Origin: a virus
Lineage: Duplodnaviria > Caudoviricetes
Strand: one strand, 5' to 3'
IMG/VR virus record: IMGVR_UViG_3300045996_002045
Span: 1 to 58,974 of that record
Length of the DNA: 58,974 bases
Shown: positions 3,631 through 45,897 of the stretch, piece by piece
How the letters are laid out: each line of letters opens with the position of its first letter
How positions within the stretch are numbered: the first letter of the stretch is position 1
Notes under the pieces: generated by a model
Databases searched by the model: none
Seen by the model: only the letters and a program-made list of their open reading frames with translations
What the model was told of the DNA's origin: nothing
Made by a program: the position numbers and the translations under genes

Positions 3631-4920
3631 ATGCGCACACCTTCCTGGCTTTCGGCTGGGCTCTTGACGGCGGTCGCCGTCGGGACCCTGGCCATGCCAA
3701 TGACCGCGGCATCCGCCGCCACCGACGCCGGTGGCGCTGACGCCTTCACCTACACCGGCACGTGGGGTGGCACTGCCCCCGCCGAAAAGTGGTCCACCAC
3801 GGCCGGGTCGACGGCGACCGCCAAGGTCGACGTGGGCCCCGGCGGCGGCACCATCTCCTGGTACGGGAACCGGGACACCGGCGGCGGCAAGGCGACGGTT
3901 ACGGTCGACGCCCGGACCCCGGTCACGGTGGACACCTACGACCCGACCCCGCCGCCTGGCCTGGACCGCAACCTCTACACGACCCCGTGGCTGGCTGAGG
4001 GCCCGCACACCGTCAAGATCAACGTGCTGGGCACCGCGCGGACCGGCGCCACCGGCGTTGCGATCTCCGTCAAGGGCGTCAACACCACGAACGGCACGAT
4101 CGTCTGGCCGGGCAGCACCACGCCGACCACGCCGACCACCCCGCCGCCCACCAGCACCCCGCTGTCGGACCCGGTGAAGAAAGAGCAGATCCTCCAGTTC
4201 GTCTCCACCGTCGAGAACGGCGACAAGGACTGGACGAAGCACTACGGCTACGTCGAGTACGGCGCTGGCATCGGCGACACCCGCGGCTACACCCTCGGGA
4301 TCGTCGGCTGGACCACCGCCACCTACGACGCCAACATCCTGTTCAAGGCCTACCGCGCCGCGAAGCCCGGGAACGTGCTCGAGAAGTGGATCGACGAGCT
4401 CGACCGCATCGACGCGATGAGCACGCAGCAGCAGCGGCATGACGCCTCGCGCACGCTGCTCGGCTCGGCGTTCGTGGCCGACGTCCGCACCGCCGGCGCC
4501 GACCCGGTCTTCCAGTCCACGCAGAAGGCCGAGCGGGACCGCATGTACTGGAAGCCGGCGTACGACCTGGCCGTCACCGACGGGCTGTCGCCGCTGGGGC
4601 TGCAGGTCTACTACGACACCTCGGTCAACCACGGCCAGGGCTCGGCGACCGTGGGCGGCCAGTCCTTCCAGGGCATCCGGGCGACCGCCATGTCCAAGGC
4701 GAAGACGCCGGCGCAGGGTGGCAGCGAGGCCGCGTACCTGAACGCCGTCCTCGACGCCCGGTGGGTCGTGCTGCAGCAGTGGGGCGACGCGCAGACCAAC
4801 GGCCGGGTGCCGGCACTGCGCACCTTCGTCTCCACCGGCAAGTTCCCGCTGACCACCCCGTACAGCTGGAACATGTACGGCACGACGCACACCATCAGCG
4901 CGCCGCCGACGCCTCGCTGA
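3631..4920 (+). CDS. csn: Secreted GH46 chitosanase with N-terminal beta-sandwich (carbohydrate-binding-like) domain
   Basis: Signal peptide ending ASA; Thr/Pro linker; LSDPVKKEQILQFVSTVEN...IGDTRGYTLGIVG...ERDRMYWKPA...TPAQGGSEAAYLNAVLDAR resembles Streptomyces GH46 chitosanase with catalytic Glu and Asp retained. Confidence 0.9.
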   Translation: MRTPSWLSAGLLTAVAVGTLAMPMTAASAATDAGGADAFTYTGTWGGTAPAEKWSTTAGSTATAKVDVGPGGGTISWYGNRDTGGGKATVTVDARTPVTVDTYDPTPPPGLDRNLYTTPWLAEGPHTVKINVLGTARTGATGVAISVKGVNTTNGTIVWPGSTTPTTPTTPPPTSTPLSDPVKKEQILQFVSTVENGDKDWTKHYGYVEYGAGIGDTRGYTLGIVGWTTATYDANILFKAYRAAKPGNVLEKWIDELDRIDAMSTQQQRHDASRTLLGSAFVADVRTAGADPVFQSTQKAERDRMYWKPAYDLAVTDGLSPLGLQVYYDTSVNHGQGSATVGGQSFQGIRATAMSKAKTPAQGGSEAAYLNAVLDARWVVLQQWGDAQTNGRVPALRTFVSTGKFPLTTPYSWNMYGTTHTISAPPTPR

Positions 4921-4939
4921 CCTCATCCCTACGAGCAGG

Positions 4940-45600: not shown

Positions 45601-45897
45601 ACTGACGTCACCTTCTACGGCCCGTCGCTCGACCCGTGGGTGATGATCGGCGGGCAGCGCTGGCAGCTGCGCGGCGAGATCGGCACCGGGGAGTCGATCC
45701 GGATGTCCGGCAAGCCGTGGCAGCAGGGCCTGCTACGCAACGACGGTGCGTGGATGGCCGGCATGTTGGGCCCCCAGGCGCGGCTGTCGCAGCTGCGGCT
45801 GCCGCCGGGGCTGTACCCCGTGAAGTACGGGGCGTACGACCCGACCGGAACCAGTAGAGCCGAAGTGGCGTGGCGCGCCGCTTACGGAACGATGTAG
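42694..45897 (+). CDS. Multidomain distal tail (Dit-like) protein with internal GH46 chitosanase domain
   Basis: Directly after the TMP; N-terminal beta domain; GH46 at ~43309-44070; AGATD repeats; C-terminal third with RIRRVYGRP, GFTFPITFP and LPPG motifs typical of actinophage Dit. Confidence 0.85.
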   Translation: MPNLSTIVDDFNDNAIDTGLWTGNYGSVSETGGRARLTNTAAGTAAYHGFQTASIYTFDDTGWYRVYPQAANGATANTYTAITVTSGAQPAGTSITMSHNAVSGMLTCQLRVGYSDAAGTSVAYSATDHAWWRIRRSGANIIFETAPDNAGAPGTATARRTATLPAWADTATDCRLLLESGRQGGTQTISEFDRVTVAAPPATWNLSDPKLKEAILRFVSTVENGNQQWWTHFGYIEYGAGIEDTRGYTGGIVGWTTATFDMNVLIKAYQSAKPGNVLEKWIPTLNSIDAMATQDERHAASLTQLGSAFVADFQAAGNDPVFQTVQMAERDRLYWAPAYNLAVTDDMSPLGLLHYYDCSVNHGQGAATIGGQSFQGIRATARSQASTPAQGGNEGTYLAKFNDARQVVLEAWGDYQAGPPPELDGRVPACRAFVAAGNFGLVTPYSWNMYGTTHTMSAWPDPYVLPSAPSGVTYRSGVTAEAGAGSSLPVGKPAGLTAGDLMLSAYLCDRDANGASIPAVTGWTTAGTLDRTSGTPEIGGMRVAWKIATAGDVSGTGWTFGSPGSADHAAAILVFTAGTFDPNNPIADVQFGVHGTAAFTHTAPSAAGVDQGMLVSVFGRSDNARPAGTVTWSTTAQDLRTQVGGSDMWTSLATATTPLTATGSTATKNGTANDSSQALSASVVIRPPAAAQAGQRNATDAAGATDSHTRTLTMTRTATSSAGATDAVQVQRGKAVASPAGATDSFSRQMTMVRSFTSWAPTTDHAVWTMDRPDIIDYQFVFDAEPWVPFGLGQTVVVEKFSPGGADTRTQDVLSPTADVRWFGTDRRTPPTWAFDMYTDVEDAGQALGWAQNMEELWDAEELRSTPNAVVPLRYCIAGRIRRVYGRPGNFEVVPTFVRTGRVHMVADFRLAEHTYYDDVEDKITIRTVPSDTSASGFTFPITFPLTIGAQGDSPIVEQAVVRGRRPTWTDVTFYGPSLDPWVMIGGQRWQLRGEIGTGESIRMSGKPWQQGLLRNDGAWMAGMLGPQARLSQLRLPPGLYPVKYGAYDPTGTSRAEVAWRAAYGTM

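What the first reader, a model, noticed from the sequence alone, without database searches (positions are those of the whole stretch)
3631..45897. Paired GH46 chitosanases: one secreted from the cell, one built into the tail
Seen: the domains at ~4162-4900 and ~43309-44070 are clear paralogues (LSDP..KE.IL.FVSTVENG; EYGAGI.DTRGYT.GIVGWTTAT.D; KPGNVLEKWI; SVNHGQG.AT.GGQSFQGIRATA; TPYSWNMYGTTHT). Both have the same YGAG insertion relative to the Streptomyces enzyme as I recall it, and they share identical DNA runs (TACAGCTGGAACATGTACGGCAC at 4861 and 44026). Established: GH46 enzymes cut glucosamine polymers using a Glu/Asp pair, and both residues are kept in both copies. Inference: a two-part system in which the virion copy binds or digests a deacetylated aminosugar layer during adsorption, while the exported copy removes the same polymer (receptor destruction, progeny release) or attacks fungal chitosan for the host. 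I know of no characterised phage with this arrangement.
Basis: partly seen in the sequence, partly recalled or inferred. Interest (0 to 1): 0.88.

Follow-up and report, generated by a model that had tools for sequence, protein, structure and literature searches.

The report
Tail-tip and secreted GH46 glycanase pair
A soil-type actinobacterial phage carries two old, diverged copies of a chitosanase-like enzyme, one fused to the ring protein at its tail tip and one made as an exported soluble protein, which suggests that it cuts an amino-sugar polymer of its host both on entry and from outside the infected cell.

Summary
Both domains pass Pfam GH46 (E 1e-53 and 2e-51). They are 69% identical over 263 residues. 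Both keep the catalytic Glu, Asp, Arg and Thr and share a 3-residue insertion found in only 5 of 47 GH46 domains compared.

The window is a complete siphophage genome of about 58.8 kb with 147-bp terminal overlap and no integrase hit. Gene 42694-45897 follows the tape measure gene directly. Its last 293 residues have the distal tail protein (Dit) fold (Z 16), so the GH46 lies in a 775-residue N-terminal extension of Dit. Gene 3631-4920 encodes a Sec-type signal peptide, a CBM6/35-like beta-sandwich, a Pro/Thr linker and GH46.

The copies are old paralogues (75% DNA identity, dS 0.6, dN/dS 0.39). Tail copies of three phages group together. The secreted gene is a mosaic: its binding module is 90% identical to a relative whose GH46 is only 51% identical.

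All phage-linked GH46 form a clade apart from cellular chitosanases and lack the -1 subsite histidine.

GH46 genes are already annotated in the tail regions of about 30 Streptomyces phages, one each. A chlorovirus makes virion and soluble forms from one gene. I rate this a new variant of a known kind. Function is inferred, not shown.

The parts
3631..4920 (+). Gene g8, a 429-aa exported soluble enzyme. Layout: signal peptide (about residues 1-29, Ala-Ser-Ala before the likely cleavage site), beta-sandwich CBM6/35-like domain (about residues 38-160), Pro/Thr linker (163-176), GH46 domain (177-428).
   Evidence: Pfam GH46 E 1e-53. AF2 model has mean pLDDT 83, with residues 1-33 unstructured. GH46 part vs 4OLT: Z 31.2, rmsd 1.4 A over 234 residues. 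N-terminal domain vs 3NQH: Z 16.1. vs CE2 N-domain 2WAA: Z 13.5. vs CsxA CBM35 2VZP: Z 10.8. Homologues P0016-P0019 and the L008 protein start with the same kind of signal peptide.
4940..4972 (+). 14-bp G+C-rich stem-loop 20 nt after the g8 stop. Candidate terminator or attenuator.
   Evidence: Folding a 70-nt stretch around it gives -38.2 kcal/mol, z -5.7, and 0 of 200 shuffles fold as well. The consensus terminator scan did not report it because it lacks a T run.
5031..6518 (+). Gene g9, 495 aa. N-terminal esterase-like domain, an Ig/FN3-like stretch, and a C-terminal CAP/YkwD domain. No signal peptide is seen.
   Evidence: Pfam CAP E 2.6e-21. Weak PHA/PHB-depolymerase-type esterase hit at residues 54-130, E 1e-7, below cut-off. 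Residues 10-252 are 40% identical to an internal domain of the GH46-bearing 1788-aa protein P0009.
2277..2292 (+). Copy 1 of a 16-nt palindromic motif, 34 nt upstream of the start of g4 (2326). Candidate promoter or operator of the block g4-g10 that holds g8 and g9.
   Evidence: The motif occurs exactly twice in the window, against 0.09 expected.
7329..7344 (+). Copy 2 of the same motif, 20 nt upstream of a small HTH gene (7364-7570) that precedes the RecE/RecT-like genes.
38258..42691 (+). Tape measure protein, 1477 aa, with a C-terminal SLT-like domain.
   Evidence: 24 PHROG families matched, nearly all tape measure, best E 7e-121. Pfam SLT E 2e-4.
42694..45897 (+). Gene g61, a 1067-aa distal tail protein (Dit) with a long N-terminal extension.
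   Evidence: The start lies 2 nt after the tape measure stop. Domains are listed in the rows below.
42694..43299 (+). g61 residues 1-202: N-terminal domain, probably a ConA/LamG-like lectin domain.
   Evidence: phrog_14065 E 3e-30. 31% identical to the domain that follows GH46 in P0009. The same domain lies beside GH46 in phage Ponzi gp58. Atlas feature hits point to GH43_C2/DUF1349-type beta-sandwiches and are a lead only. Not confidently modelled.
43306..44079 (+). g61 residues 205-462: GH46 domain, the tail copy.
   Evidence: Pfam E 2.2e-51. 1CHK E 1e-43 with catalytic residues kept. Poorly modelled in the full-length AF2 run.
44101..44763 (+). g61 residues 470-690: beta-sandwich middle domain, shared with about 600-aa Dit relatives.
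   Evidence: pLDDT about 90. Present in P0005-P0007, P0010, P0059 and others. Only weak fold hits: Pgp3 at Z 7.5 and Tuc2009 RBP head at Z 6.6.
44767..44979 (+). g61 residues 692-762: low-confidence repeat linker with an Ala-Gly-Ala-Thr-Asp-type motif. The same motif is repeated many times in g71.
   Evidence: pLDDT below 50. BLAST of g61 637-771 vs g71 827-963 gives 34% identity. Repeat family D14.
45016..45897 (+). g61 residues 775-1067: Dit core.
   Evidence: pLDDT about 97. Foldseek top hits: Douge baseplate 8ZDO_m E 4e-13, p2 baseplate 2WZP_P, SPP1 Dit 2X8K. VIA: 8ZDO_m Z 16.4 over 257 residues, 2X8K_A Z 16.0 over 232, Bxb1 9D93_Ma Z 14.6 over 273. 792 relatives were found, most of them stand-alone proteins of about 290 aa.
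54786..58967 (+). Gene g71, a 1393-aa fibre-like protein with 20-aa tandem repeats. It is the last structural gene before g1 on the circular map.
   Evidence: Direct repeat families D1 and D2 have a 60-nt period. Its repeat motif is shared with g61, P0002 and P0004.
1..147 (.). Terminal overlap. Bases 1-147 are 99% identical to 58828-58974, so the map closes and g8 lies about 3.6 kb downstream of g71.
   Evidence: Repeat family D6.

Best explanation
Shown by sequence and fold. The window is the complete genome of a siphophage of an actinobacterium, and it encodes two diverged copies of a phage-specific GH46 glycanase. One copy lies in the N-terminal extension of the distal tail protein, the ring under the last tail-tube disc. 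The other copy is a Sec-type exported protein made of a carbohydrate-binding module, a linker and GH46. Its gene lies in a non-structural block that carries the same upstream motif as the recombination and replication block.

Inferred mechanism. Dit rings are hexamers in solved phages, so about six GH46 modules would sit at the tail tip. There they would cut a beta-1,4 amino-sugar polymer of the host envelope so that the tip can reach the wall or membrane. Candidates are a glucosamine-bearing wall glycopolymer or N-deacetylated peptidoglycan. The exported copy would be sent out through the Sec pathway before lysis and held on the wall by its binding module. It would remove the same polymer from the infected cell and its neighbours. 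That could weaken the wall for lysis and keep progeny or rival phages from binding spent cells.

The link between the two copies is that the catalytic-domain type of the secreted enzyme follows that of the tail enzyme, even where the rest of the secreted protein has a different history.
For: Both are GH46:
- establish the family.
- All five members of the insertion clade keep the equivalents of E22, D40, R42, T45, D57, D145, R190 and R205 (invariant columns).
- Pairwise dN/dS is 0.39 at dS 0.60, so both copies are under purifying selection.

Tail location:
- The gene starts 2 nt after the tape measure gene.
- The C-terminal part has the Dit fold at Z 16.4 and 16.0.
- In a related metagenomic contig, a tape measure protein 66% identical is again followed directly by a GH46-Dit protein (P0002, L005).

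Export:
- The N-terminus has a basic stretch, a hydrophobic stretch and Ala-x-Ala. This is conserved in P0016-P0019 and L008 and unstructured in the model.
- The CBM-like fold is supported.

Phage function rather than borrowed host enzyme:
- 14 phage-linked GH46 domains form a clade (100/100) apart from 33 cellular actinobacterial chitosanases.
- All 14 replace the Glu-x-x-His-x-Asp loop before R205 with Trp-Gly-Asp.

Coupling of the two copies:
- Tail copies g61, P0002 and P0009 group at 100/97. Secreted copies g8 and P0014 group at 87/64. Both groups lie inside one 5-member clade.
- P0009 and P0014 are each recorded on one contig of 19,937 bp.
- The g8 binding module is 90% identical to that of P0015, but their GH46 domains are 51% identical, whereas g8 GH46 is 70% identical to g61.
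- The g5-g7-g8 gene order is kept in contig L008. A signal-peptide GH46 follows fibre-like genes in L006.

Phage lifestyle: no integrase among the 81 ORFs scanned, so a lysogen-benefit role is less likely.
Against: - No activity, virion or expression data exist. No RNA run could be listed, which leaves the question open.
- The host genus and its wall polymers are unknown. The large terminase is at most about 31% identical to any isolate.
- The GH46 part of g61 was not confidently modelled. Its exposure at the tip, and whether the extension is kept or cleaved off, are unknown.
- The same-contig status of P0009 and P0014 rests only on equal contig length. I could not fetch that contig. Type matching is therefore seen in 2 of 2 observable cases, one of them unproven.
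- The secreted-copy pairing in the tree has only moderate support (87/64), and P0014 has a long branch.
- The tape measure protein already carries an SLT-like domain, and the phage has an endolysin and a secreted NlpC/P60. Wall cutting does not obviously need GH46.
- The architecture of g8 (signal peptide, CBM, GH46) is also that of ordinary cellular secreted chitosanases.
Confidence: 0.5

Rival explanations
1. Both copies are lysozyme-like peptidoglycan glycosidases. The Dit-borne one would be a virion-associated lysin that opens N-deacetylated peptidoglycan at entry. The exported one would be a Sec-delivered lysis enzyme that supplies the glycosidase activity the peptidase-type endolysin lacks.
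For: GH46 shares its fold and clan with lysozyme families, and one GH46 cluster carries peptidoglycan-binding modules (passages of PMC4663542). The lysis gene 52314-53000 has only a weak M15-type peptidase hit plus PG_binding_1 and no glycosidase. The phage clade has a changed -1 subsite loop. This overlaps with the best explanation, which lists deacetylated peptidoglycan as a candidate substrate.
Against: The -2 subsite Asp that reads the free amine of glucosamine is kept. No peptidoglycan-binding module (LysM, PG_binding) is attached to either GH46, while such modules are present on other genes of this phage. The tape measure protein already has an SLT-like domain. No GH46 enzyme has shown muramidase activity in the review passages I read.
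Confidence: 0.2
2. The secreted copy is an auxiliary or moron gene unrelated to infection mechanics. It would digest environmental (fungal) chitosan for the host, or protect the host from chitosan, and its likeness to the tail copy would reflect only a shared gene pool.
For: The signal-peptide, CBM, GH46 layout is that of cellular secreted chitosanases (one search lists such proteins with ricin or discoidin modules). A strong hairpin after g8 suggests a separate transcription end. GH46 chitosanases protect bacteria against chitosan and feed them (passages of PMC4663542). A soil phage GH75 chitosanase is active in vitro (passages of PMC9485262).
Against: The g8 GH46 lies in the phage-linked clade, not among the 33 cellular enzymes. 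It shares the rare insertion with tail copies. Its catalytic type follows the tail type despite a different history of its binding module. No integrase or other lysogeny gene was found, so there may be no long-lived lysogen to benefit. The same binding module is joined to CAP and other domains in related secreted proteins (P0018, P0019).
Confidence: 0.15
3. The tail GH46 is a binding module only, a lectin-like receptor-binding domain that no longer needs catalysis.
For: Dit extensions in other phages carry binding modules (listing and abstracts only). Catalytically dead GH46 still binds chitosan (passage of PMC4663542).
Against: All catalytic and network residues are invariant in the three tail copies, and the domain is under purifying selection.
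Confidence: 0.05

Closest known systems
GH46 'chitosanase / glycoside hydrolase' genes annotated in isolated Streptomyces phages (for example Rima gp21, 599 aa, between the major tail and tape measure genes; Ponzi gp58, 828 aa, after the minor tail genes)
   Same: A GH46 domain inside a large protein encoded among tail genes of an actinobacterial siphophage. They belong to the same phage-linked GH46 clade, with the Trp-Gly-Asp loop in place of the -1 His loop. Ponzi also has the g61-type N-terminal domain beside GH46.
   Different: Only 37-41% identical. One GH46 place per genome in 30 of 30 records. Not fused to Dit. They lack the 3-residue insertion. I found no functional study: the searches gave only annotation tables.
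Chlorovirus CVK2 chitosanase vChta-1 (GH46)
   Same: A virus makes a virion-packaged form and a soluble form of a GH46 enzyme. They are proposed to act at entry and at lysis on a glucosamine-rich host wall (passages of review PMC4663542).
   Different: There, one gene gives two proteins through alternative transcripts. Here there are two diverged genes, one with a signal peptide. The host there is a eukaryotic alga, and the enzyme belongs to a different GH46 cluster. For the related virus PBCV-1, the presence of the enzyme in virions was later questioned (same passages).
Evolved distal tail proteins (evoDit) of lactococcal, streptococcal and Bacillus siphophages
   Same: A Dit core with added sugar-directed modules at the tail tip (listing and abstracts; Dit fold).
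   Different: In those phages, as I recall, the additions are carbohydrate-binding modules inserted in the C-terminal domain. Here a 775-residue N-terminal extension carries an enzyme domain. None of 14 other long relatives of this Dit family had a GH46 or other glycosidase hit.
Streptomyces sp. N174 chitosanase CsnN174 (1CHK) and Microbacterium OU01 chitosanase (4OLT)
   Same: Same fold (Z 31.2, rmsd 1.4 A over 234 residues, for g8) and same catalytic Glu, Asp, Arg and Thr, -2 Asp and Arg-Asp-Arg network.
   Different: About 42% identity. 3-residue insertion in the minor-lobe loop between the two catalytic residues. The equivalent of K33 is Gly. The loop with E197, H200 and D201 is replaced.
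Soil viral GH75 chitosanase V-Csn
   Same: A phage-encoded enzyme of the chitosanase class from soil, and it is active in vitro (passages of PMC9485262).
   Different: Unrelated fold (double-psi beta-barrel). Interpreted as an auxiliary metabolic gene. Single copy, and not described as a tail protein (the word 'tail' occurs 0 times in that text).

Membership tests
Glycoside hydrolase family 46 | Pfam PF01374 match above the gathering score | tested here: met
   182.6 and 174.9 bits against a cut-off of 27. The same two places were found in the genome-wide scan.
Glycoside hydrolase family 46 | General acid Glu, general base Asp, Arg bonded to the base, and water-positioning Thr (E22, D40, R42, T45 of CsnN174) | tested here: met
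   Aligned and identical in both copies. Invariant in all 5 clade members. Residue roles are from Table 1 of PMC4663542.
Glycoside hydrolase family 46 | Two-lobed alpha-helical lysozyme-like fold | tested here: met
   g8 model vs 4OLT_A: Z 31.2, rmsd 1.4 A, 234 residues. vs 7C6D_A: Z 27.8. For g61 the fold is inferred from 69% identity only, because its own model was poor in this part.
Glycoside hydrolase family 46 | Chitosan-type substrate cleft: -2 subsite Asp (D57) and -1 subsite His (H200 of CsnN174, H203 of OU01) | tested here: inconclusive
   The D57 equivalent is kept in all 20 sequences printed for that stretch, of 47 aligned. The His-bearing loop is replaced by Trp-Gly-Asp in all 14 phage-linked sequences. 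Loop alignment is less certain than for the core.
Glycoside hydrolase family 46 | Endo-hydrolysis of chitosan | not testable with these tools
   Needs an enzyme assay.
Distal tail protein (Dit) of siphophages | Gene immediately downstream of the tape measure gene | tested here: met
   TMP is 38258-42691 and g61 starts at 42694. The same order is seen in L005.
Distal tail protein (Dit) of siphophages | Dit fold: N-terminal tube-like beta-sandwich plus C-terminal galectin-like domain | tested here: met
   Residues 775-1067 vs Douge baseplate chain 8ZDO_m: Z 16.4 over 257 residues. vs SPP1 Dit 2X8K_A: Z 16.0 over 232. vs p2 2WZP_P: Z 14.7. vs Bxb1 9D93_Ma: Z 14.6. Foldseek E 4e-13 to 2.5e-8 for the top 11 ranked chains, which include Dit entries such as SPP1 Dit and baseplate or tail-tip chains of Douge, p2, NF5, TP901-1 and 80alpha.
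Distal tail protein (Dit) of siphophages | Sequence-family match (Pfam SPP1_Dit) | tested here: inconclusive
   The window's own domain gave no Pfam hit. 9 of 50 aligned relatives hit PF22768, best E 1.2e-5. A profile of the family found no PDB sequence.
Distal tail protein (Dit) of siphophages | Hexameric ring in the virion | not testable with these tools
   Needs virion proteomics or cryo-EM.
Evolved Dit (evoDit) | Carbohydrate-binding module inserted in the C-terminal domain of Dit | tested here: not met
   The extra 775 residues all lie N-terminal to the Dit core and include an enzyme domain. The definition of evoDit is recalled and is supported only by the listing.
Sec-exported protein | N-terminal basic region, hydrophobic core of about 15-20 residues, small-x-small cleavage motif, no lipobox Cys | tested here: met
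   Read directly from the translation. The same layout is seen in P0016-P0019 and L008. Residues 1-33 have pLDDT below 50. No dedicated predictor was available, and export itself was not tested.
CBM6/CBM35-type carbohydrate-binding module | Beta-jelly-roll fold like solved CBM35/CBM6/CE2-N domains | tested here: met
   g8 residues about 33-156 vs 3NQH_A: Z 16.1. vs 2WAA_A: Z 13.5. vs 2VZP_A: Z 10.8. Many CBM35, CBM6 and CBM36 entries score Z 8-11. There was no Pfam hit. The ligand is unknown.
Chlorovirus-type dual chitosanase (CVK2 vChta-1) | Virion and soluble forms made from one gene by alternative transcripts | tested here: not met
   Here there are two separate genes 39 kb apart with 75% DNA identity. 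The resemblance is in function only.

The most novel reading that the evidence does not exclude
The two genes form a matched receptor-destroying system of a bacteriophage. The tail-tip GH46 opens a glucosamine-type surface glycan at entry. A Sec-exported paralogue, expressed with the early genes, strips the same glycan from the infected hypha and its neighbours. This would block superinfection and stop progeny being lost on dead cells, much as influenza pairs a binding activity with a receptor-destroying one. The catalytic domain of the secreted enzyme would be swapped by recombination whenever the tail enzyme, and so the host glycan type, changes. The esterase-like module of the neighbouring gene g9, which in a relative is built into the same giant tail protein as GH46, would remove acyl groups from that glycan. 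This would point to an undescribed amino-sugar polymer as a phage receptor in filamentous actinobacteria.
Probability: 0.25. Interest if true: 0.8.

Novelty: new variant of a known kind. Interest (0 to 1): 0.55.

Why it matters
Receptors and envelope barriers for phages of Streptomyces-like bacteria are poorly known. The GH46 'chitosanase' genes annotated in Streptomyces phages have no assigned role.

This genome places a GH46 on a defined virion part, the Dit ring. It also shows that a soluble exported paralogue is kept alongside it and follows its type. That turns a vague annotation into a testable idea: these phages must cut a glucosamine-bearing polymer of the host envelope.

The phage-linked GH46 clade has a changed -1 subsite and, in five members, an inserted loop. 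It is a defined set of enzymes in which to look for a new specificity. A Dit that carries an enzyme rather than only binding modules would also widen what is known about tail-tip architecture.

Tried and rejected
Searches for related contigs:
- A viral-contig scan with g61 found no relatives.
- A viral-contig scan with the GH46 clade alignment found none.
- A viral-contig scan with P0017 found none.
- The metagenome scan with the clade alignment gave only 4 loci, L005-L008, and not the 19,937-bp contig.
- The first genome-contig scan found nothing.
- The second, with the extended-Dit alignment, gave 6 prophage-like loci in Nocardioides, Georgenia, Micrococcaceae, Cellulomonas and a Gemmatimonadetes MAG. 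They share only the Dit core at 32-40% identity. I did not analyse them further, and they do not fix the host.
- The listing of cluster members gave no accessions, so I could not prove that P0009 and P0014 are on the same contig.

Other attempts that led nowhere:
- No RNA holder was listed for window 2200-7400.
- The consensus promoter and terminator scan of 1-8000 found no promoter-like site and only one weak terminator-like site on the minus strand.
- Megablast of 26000-46000 against phages gave only short capsid-gene matches.
- No tRNA genes were found.
- The full-length AF2 model of g61 was poor for residues 1-469, because the GH46 homologues were misaligned in the 89-row alignment.
- Pfam and NCBIfam gave nothing for the g61 N-terminal, middle and Dit parts or for the g8 binding module.
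- The profile search of the Dit family against PDB sequences found nothing.
- The search of earlier findings had no notes on this genome.

Ideas considered and rejected:
- Recent gene conversion between the two copies. Divergence is even along the domains and the 23-nt run is explained by conserved codons.
- Host flank or assembly chimera. The map closes, genes on both sides are phage genes, and GC is uniform.

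
Full report
**What the window is**

The record is an IMG/VR virus contig of 58,974 bp, classed as linear, with a CheckV estimate of 89% complete. Bases 1-147 repeat at 58828-58974 with 99% identity (family D6). The map therefore closes, and the genome of about 58.8 kb is probably complete.

GC is about 70% throughout, with one dip to 0.65 at 24-26 kb. A codon-position score gave 71 genes, 68 of them on the + strand.

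PHROG scans of those 71 proteins (for g8 I used the 3631 start) and of 10 further ORFs gave the following:
- A standard siphophage late module: large terminase 27159, portal, protease, major head, connectors, major tail 35195, chaperone, tape measure 38258-42691, minor tails, endolysin 52314.
- An early module: RecE/RecT-like, RusA-like, replication initiator, primase/helicase, FtsK-like.
- No integrase.

The large terminase is at most about 31% identical to any of 50,697 phage records. This is an undescribed lineage. Its host can only be said to be a high-GC actinobacterium.

**The observation**

Both claimed domains are real GH46 domains. Pfam PF01374 scores 182.6 and 174.9 bits against a cut-off of 27, and these are the only two places in the genome. 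The proteins align with 181/263 identical residues.

Against the solved Streptomyces sp. N174 enzyme (1CHK), both keep the following (residue roles from Table 1 of review PMC4663542):
- the general acid Glu;
- the general base Asp;
- the Arg and Thr that assist the base;
- the -2 subsite Asp;
- the Arg-Asp-Arg network;
- the two structural Trp.

Both have three extra residues between the two catalytic residues. In a 47-domain alignment this insertion occurs in 5 sequences only. The 23-nt identical run is real. It covers invariant residues in a genome with extreme codon bias, while overall DNA identity is 75% (569/759), spread evenly. It is not a trace of recent exchange.

**The tail copy**

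Gene 42694-45897 starts two bases after the tape measure stop.

A search of 1.84 billion representatives with residues 463-1067 found 792 relatives. Most of the 150 listed are stand-alone proteins of about 290 residues that match only the last 290 residues of the query. About two dozen are near 600 residues and also share the middle domain. Nine are longer than 700.

The AF2 model (89-row alignment, which I chose from the hits) is confident for residues 470-690 and 777-1067 and poor elsewhere. The C-terminal part matches solved Dit proteins:
- Foldseek: E 4e-13 for a mycobacteriophage Douge baseplate chain, 9e-11 for lactococcal phage p2, 1.4e-9 for SPP1 Dit.
- VIA-align: Z 16.4 over 257 residues, 16.0 over 232 and 14.6 over 273 for Douge, SPP1 and Bxb1.
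- Pfam SPP1_Dit hit 9 of 50 aligned relatives but not the window's own sequence.

So the protein is the Dit of this phage, with 775 extra residues in front. In order these are:
- a domain of about 200 residues (phrog_14065, probably a ConA-like lectin fold);
- GH46;
- a beta-sandwich middle domain;
- a disordered repeat linker.

In contig L005, a tape measure protein 66% identical is again followed directly by a GH46-Dit protein (P0002, 60% identical over 86% of the query). Of 14 other long family members scanned, none had GH46. Among proteins of 456-2000 residues in the 5.8-billion-protein set, only P0002, P0009 and P0014 were at least 57% identical to the tail domain across essentially its whole length (99% coverage); the truncated P0003 matched at 62% over only 35%. 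The fusion is rare.

**The secreted copy**

Gene 3631-4920 begins with a basic stretch, a hydrophobic stretch and Ala-Ser-Ala. Five homologues have the same kind of N-terminus.

The AF2 model (35-row alignment, mean pLDDT 83) shows:
- an unstructured signal region;
- a beta-sandwich at 38-160;
- a Pro/Thr linker;
- a GH46 domain that superposes on the 4OLT chitosanase complex with Z 31.2 and rmsd 1.4 A over 234 residues.

The sandwich resembles a Bacteroides glycosidase accessory domain (Z 16.1), CE2 esterase N-domains (Z 13.5) and many CBM35/CBM6 modules, including that of the Amycolatopsis exo-chitosanase (Z 10.8). I read it as a carbohydrate-binding module of unknown ligand.

A 14-bp G+C stem-loop follows the stop codon. 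A 16-nt palindromic motif occurs only twice in the genome: just upstream of g4, the first gene of the block that holds g8 and g9, and just upstream of a small HTH gene that heads the recombination block. This suggests, but does not show, that g8 is expressed with early genes.

**How the two copies are related**

I built a tree of 47 GH46 domains. I left out P0001 and P0013, which are the window's own proteins, and the partial domains of P0003 and L008.

- Fourteen phage-linked sequences form a clade (100/100) apart from 33 cellular actinobacterial chitosanases.
- Inside that clade, the five sequences with the insertion form a group (100/100, stem 0.53).
- That group splits into the tail-type trio g61, P0002 and P0009 (100/97) and the secreted-type pair g8 and P0014 (87/64; P0014 has a long branch).

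The duplication is therefore older than the split of these phages. Pairwise dS is 0.60 and dN/dS 0.39.

P0009 (1788 aa) and P0014 (716 aa, annotated chitosanase, with two binding modules) are each known from a single contig of 19,937 bp. They are very probably on the same contig, which would be a second genome with the matched pair. I could not fetch it.

The secreted gene is a mosaic:
- Its signal peptide and binding module are 90% identical (136 residues) to P0015.
- The GH46 domains of g8 and P0015 are only 51% identical, and that of P0015 lacks the insertion.
- The g8 GH46 is 70% identical to both g61 and P0014.

Contig L008 keeps the g5-g7-g8 gene order (g7 73% identical) but again has the ordinary domain type. 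So the catalytic domain of the secreted gene has been exchanged during the history of this gene family. In the two genomes where both copies can be seen, it is of the same type as the tail copy.

**A phage-specific kind of GH46**

All 14 phage-linked sequences replace the loop before the essential Arg with Trp-Gly-Asp. In cellular enzymes that loop carries Glu, His and Asp, and the His makes a critical -1 subsite contact in the OU01 enzyme according to the review. The -2 Asp, which reads the free amine, is kept. The insertion clade also changes the minor-lobe loop next to the + subsites.

The enzymes are thus likely to be active on a beta-1,4 amino-sugar chain. The preferred substrate need not be classical chitosan.

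**Surroundings that bear on function**

- The neighbouring gene g9 has a CAP/YkwD domain and an N-terminal esterase-like domain. The esterase hit is weak and below cut-off.
- That N-terminal domain is 40% identical over 249 residues to an internal domain of P0009, the giant protein that also carries the tail-type GH46.
- The g8-type binding module is joined to CAP and other domains in the related secreted proteins P0018 and P0019.
- The phage also encodes a signal-peptide LysM-NlpC/P60 protein (25019-25798). A small signal-peptide protein lies inside the tail operon (46942-47409).
- In contig L006, a signal-peptide GH46 lies two genes after a fibre-like gene and a holin-like gene.
- Streptomyces surfaces are now known to carry species-specific beta-1,4 amino-sugar polymers that toxins use as receptors (passages of preprint 10.1101/2025.04.24.650519). 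I cite this only to show that such polymers exist. The ones described there are fully N-acetylated uronic acids, and nothing links them to this phage.

**Interpretation**

The anatomy is well supported: a Dit-borne GH46 and an exported CBM-GH46, old paralogues, both conserved.

The mechanism is inferred. The tail enzyme would clear a glucosamine-type envelope polymer at entry. The exported enzyme would remove the same polymer from outside during infection. I give this 0.5.

The rivals are:
- both enzymes are peptidoglycan glycosidases (0.2);
- the secreted one is an auxiliary chitosan-degrading gene (0.15);
- the tail domain only binds (0.05).

**Comparison with what is known**

- Thirty Streptomyces phage records already carry one GH46 gene among tail or late genes, annotated chitosanase or glycoside hydrolase. 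None carries two.
- My searches for 'chitosanase' with 'Streptomyces phage' and for 'GH46, phage, tail' found only annotation tables and no functional work. The 2015 GH46 review does not contain the word phage.
- The nearest functional precedent is chlorovirus CVK2. There one GH46 gene gives a 65-kDa virion form and a 37-kDa soluble form.
- Evolved Dits with binding modules are known (listing and abstracts only).

The new points here are a Dit that carries an enzyme, a separate exported paralogue, and the type matching between them. I rate this a new variant of a known kind, of moderate interest.

Noticed in passing
window 1-147 and 58828-58974: The two ends of the record are 99% identical over 147 bp, so the contig closes on itself. 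The genome looks complete, although the record is classed as linear with 89% estimated completeness.
   Followed up: partly
window 2277-2292 and 7329-7344: A 16-nt palindromic motif occurs exactly twice (0.09 expected), each time just upstream of the first gene of a + strand block (g4, and a small HTH gene at 7364-7570). The longer repeat family D15 extends it to about 41 nt. It is a candidate early promoter or operator.
   Followed up: partly
window 25019-25798: A LysM plus NlpC/P60 peptidoglycan endopeptidase-like protein with an apparent Sec signal peptide (if the ATG at 25019 is the start). It is encoded just before the packaging genes and is a second exported wall enzyme of this phage.
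   Followed up: partly
window 46942-47409: A 155-aa protein with an apparent signal peptide lies inside the tail gene cluster, between two minor tail genes. It has no family hit.
   Followed up: no
window 36318-37148: A 276-aa protein with a Pro/Tyr-rich N-terminus and hydrophobic segments lies between the major tail gene and the tail chaperone genes. This is an unusual place for a membrane protein. Its PHROG hits are to families of unknown function.
   Followed up: no
window 57337-58253 (g71) and 44767-44979 (g61): The 1393-aa fibre-like protein holds many tandem 20-residue (60-nt) repeats with an Ala-Gly-Ala-Thr-Asp-type motif. The same motif forms the linker before the Dit core of g61 and occurs in the relatives P0002 and P0004. 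It may be a shared docking or spacer element.
   Followed up: partly
window 5031-5780 and protein P0009 residues 1197-1437: The esterase-like N-terminal domain of g9, a separate protein here, is built into the same giant protein as a tail-type GH46 in a related contig. Enzyme modules seem to move between free and virion-attached forms.
   Followed up: partly
window 40530-40934: There are three tandem 135-nt repeats inside the tape measure gene. The tape measure also has a C-terminal SLT-like domain.
   Followed up: no
window 23125-25019: About 2 kb with lower GC (0.65) has no confidently coding frame and no PHROG hit for its two longest ORFs. It lies just before the secreted NlpC/P60 gene and the packaging module, and may hold the genome end or regulatory region.
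   Followed up: no
window 1518-2277: g2 and g3 are two of the three minus-strand genes called (the third is the 42-aa g42 at 25859-25987). They diverge from g4 at the motif site.
   Followed up: no
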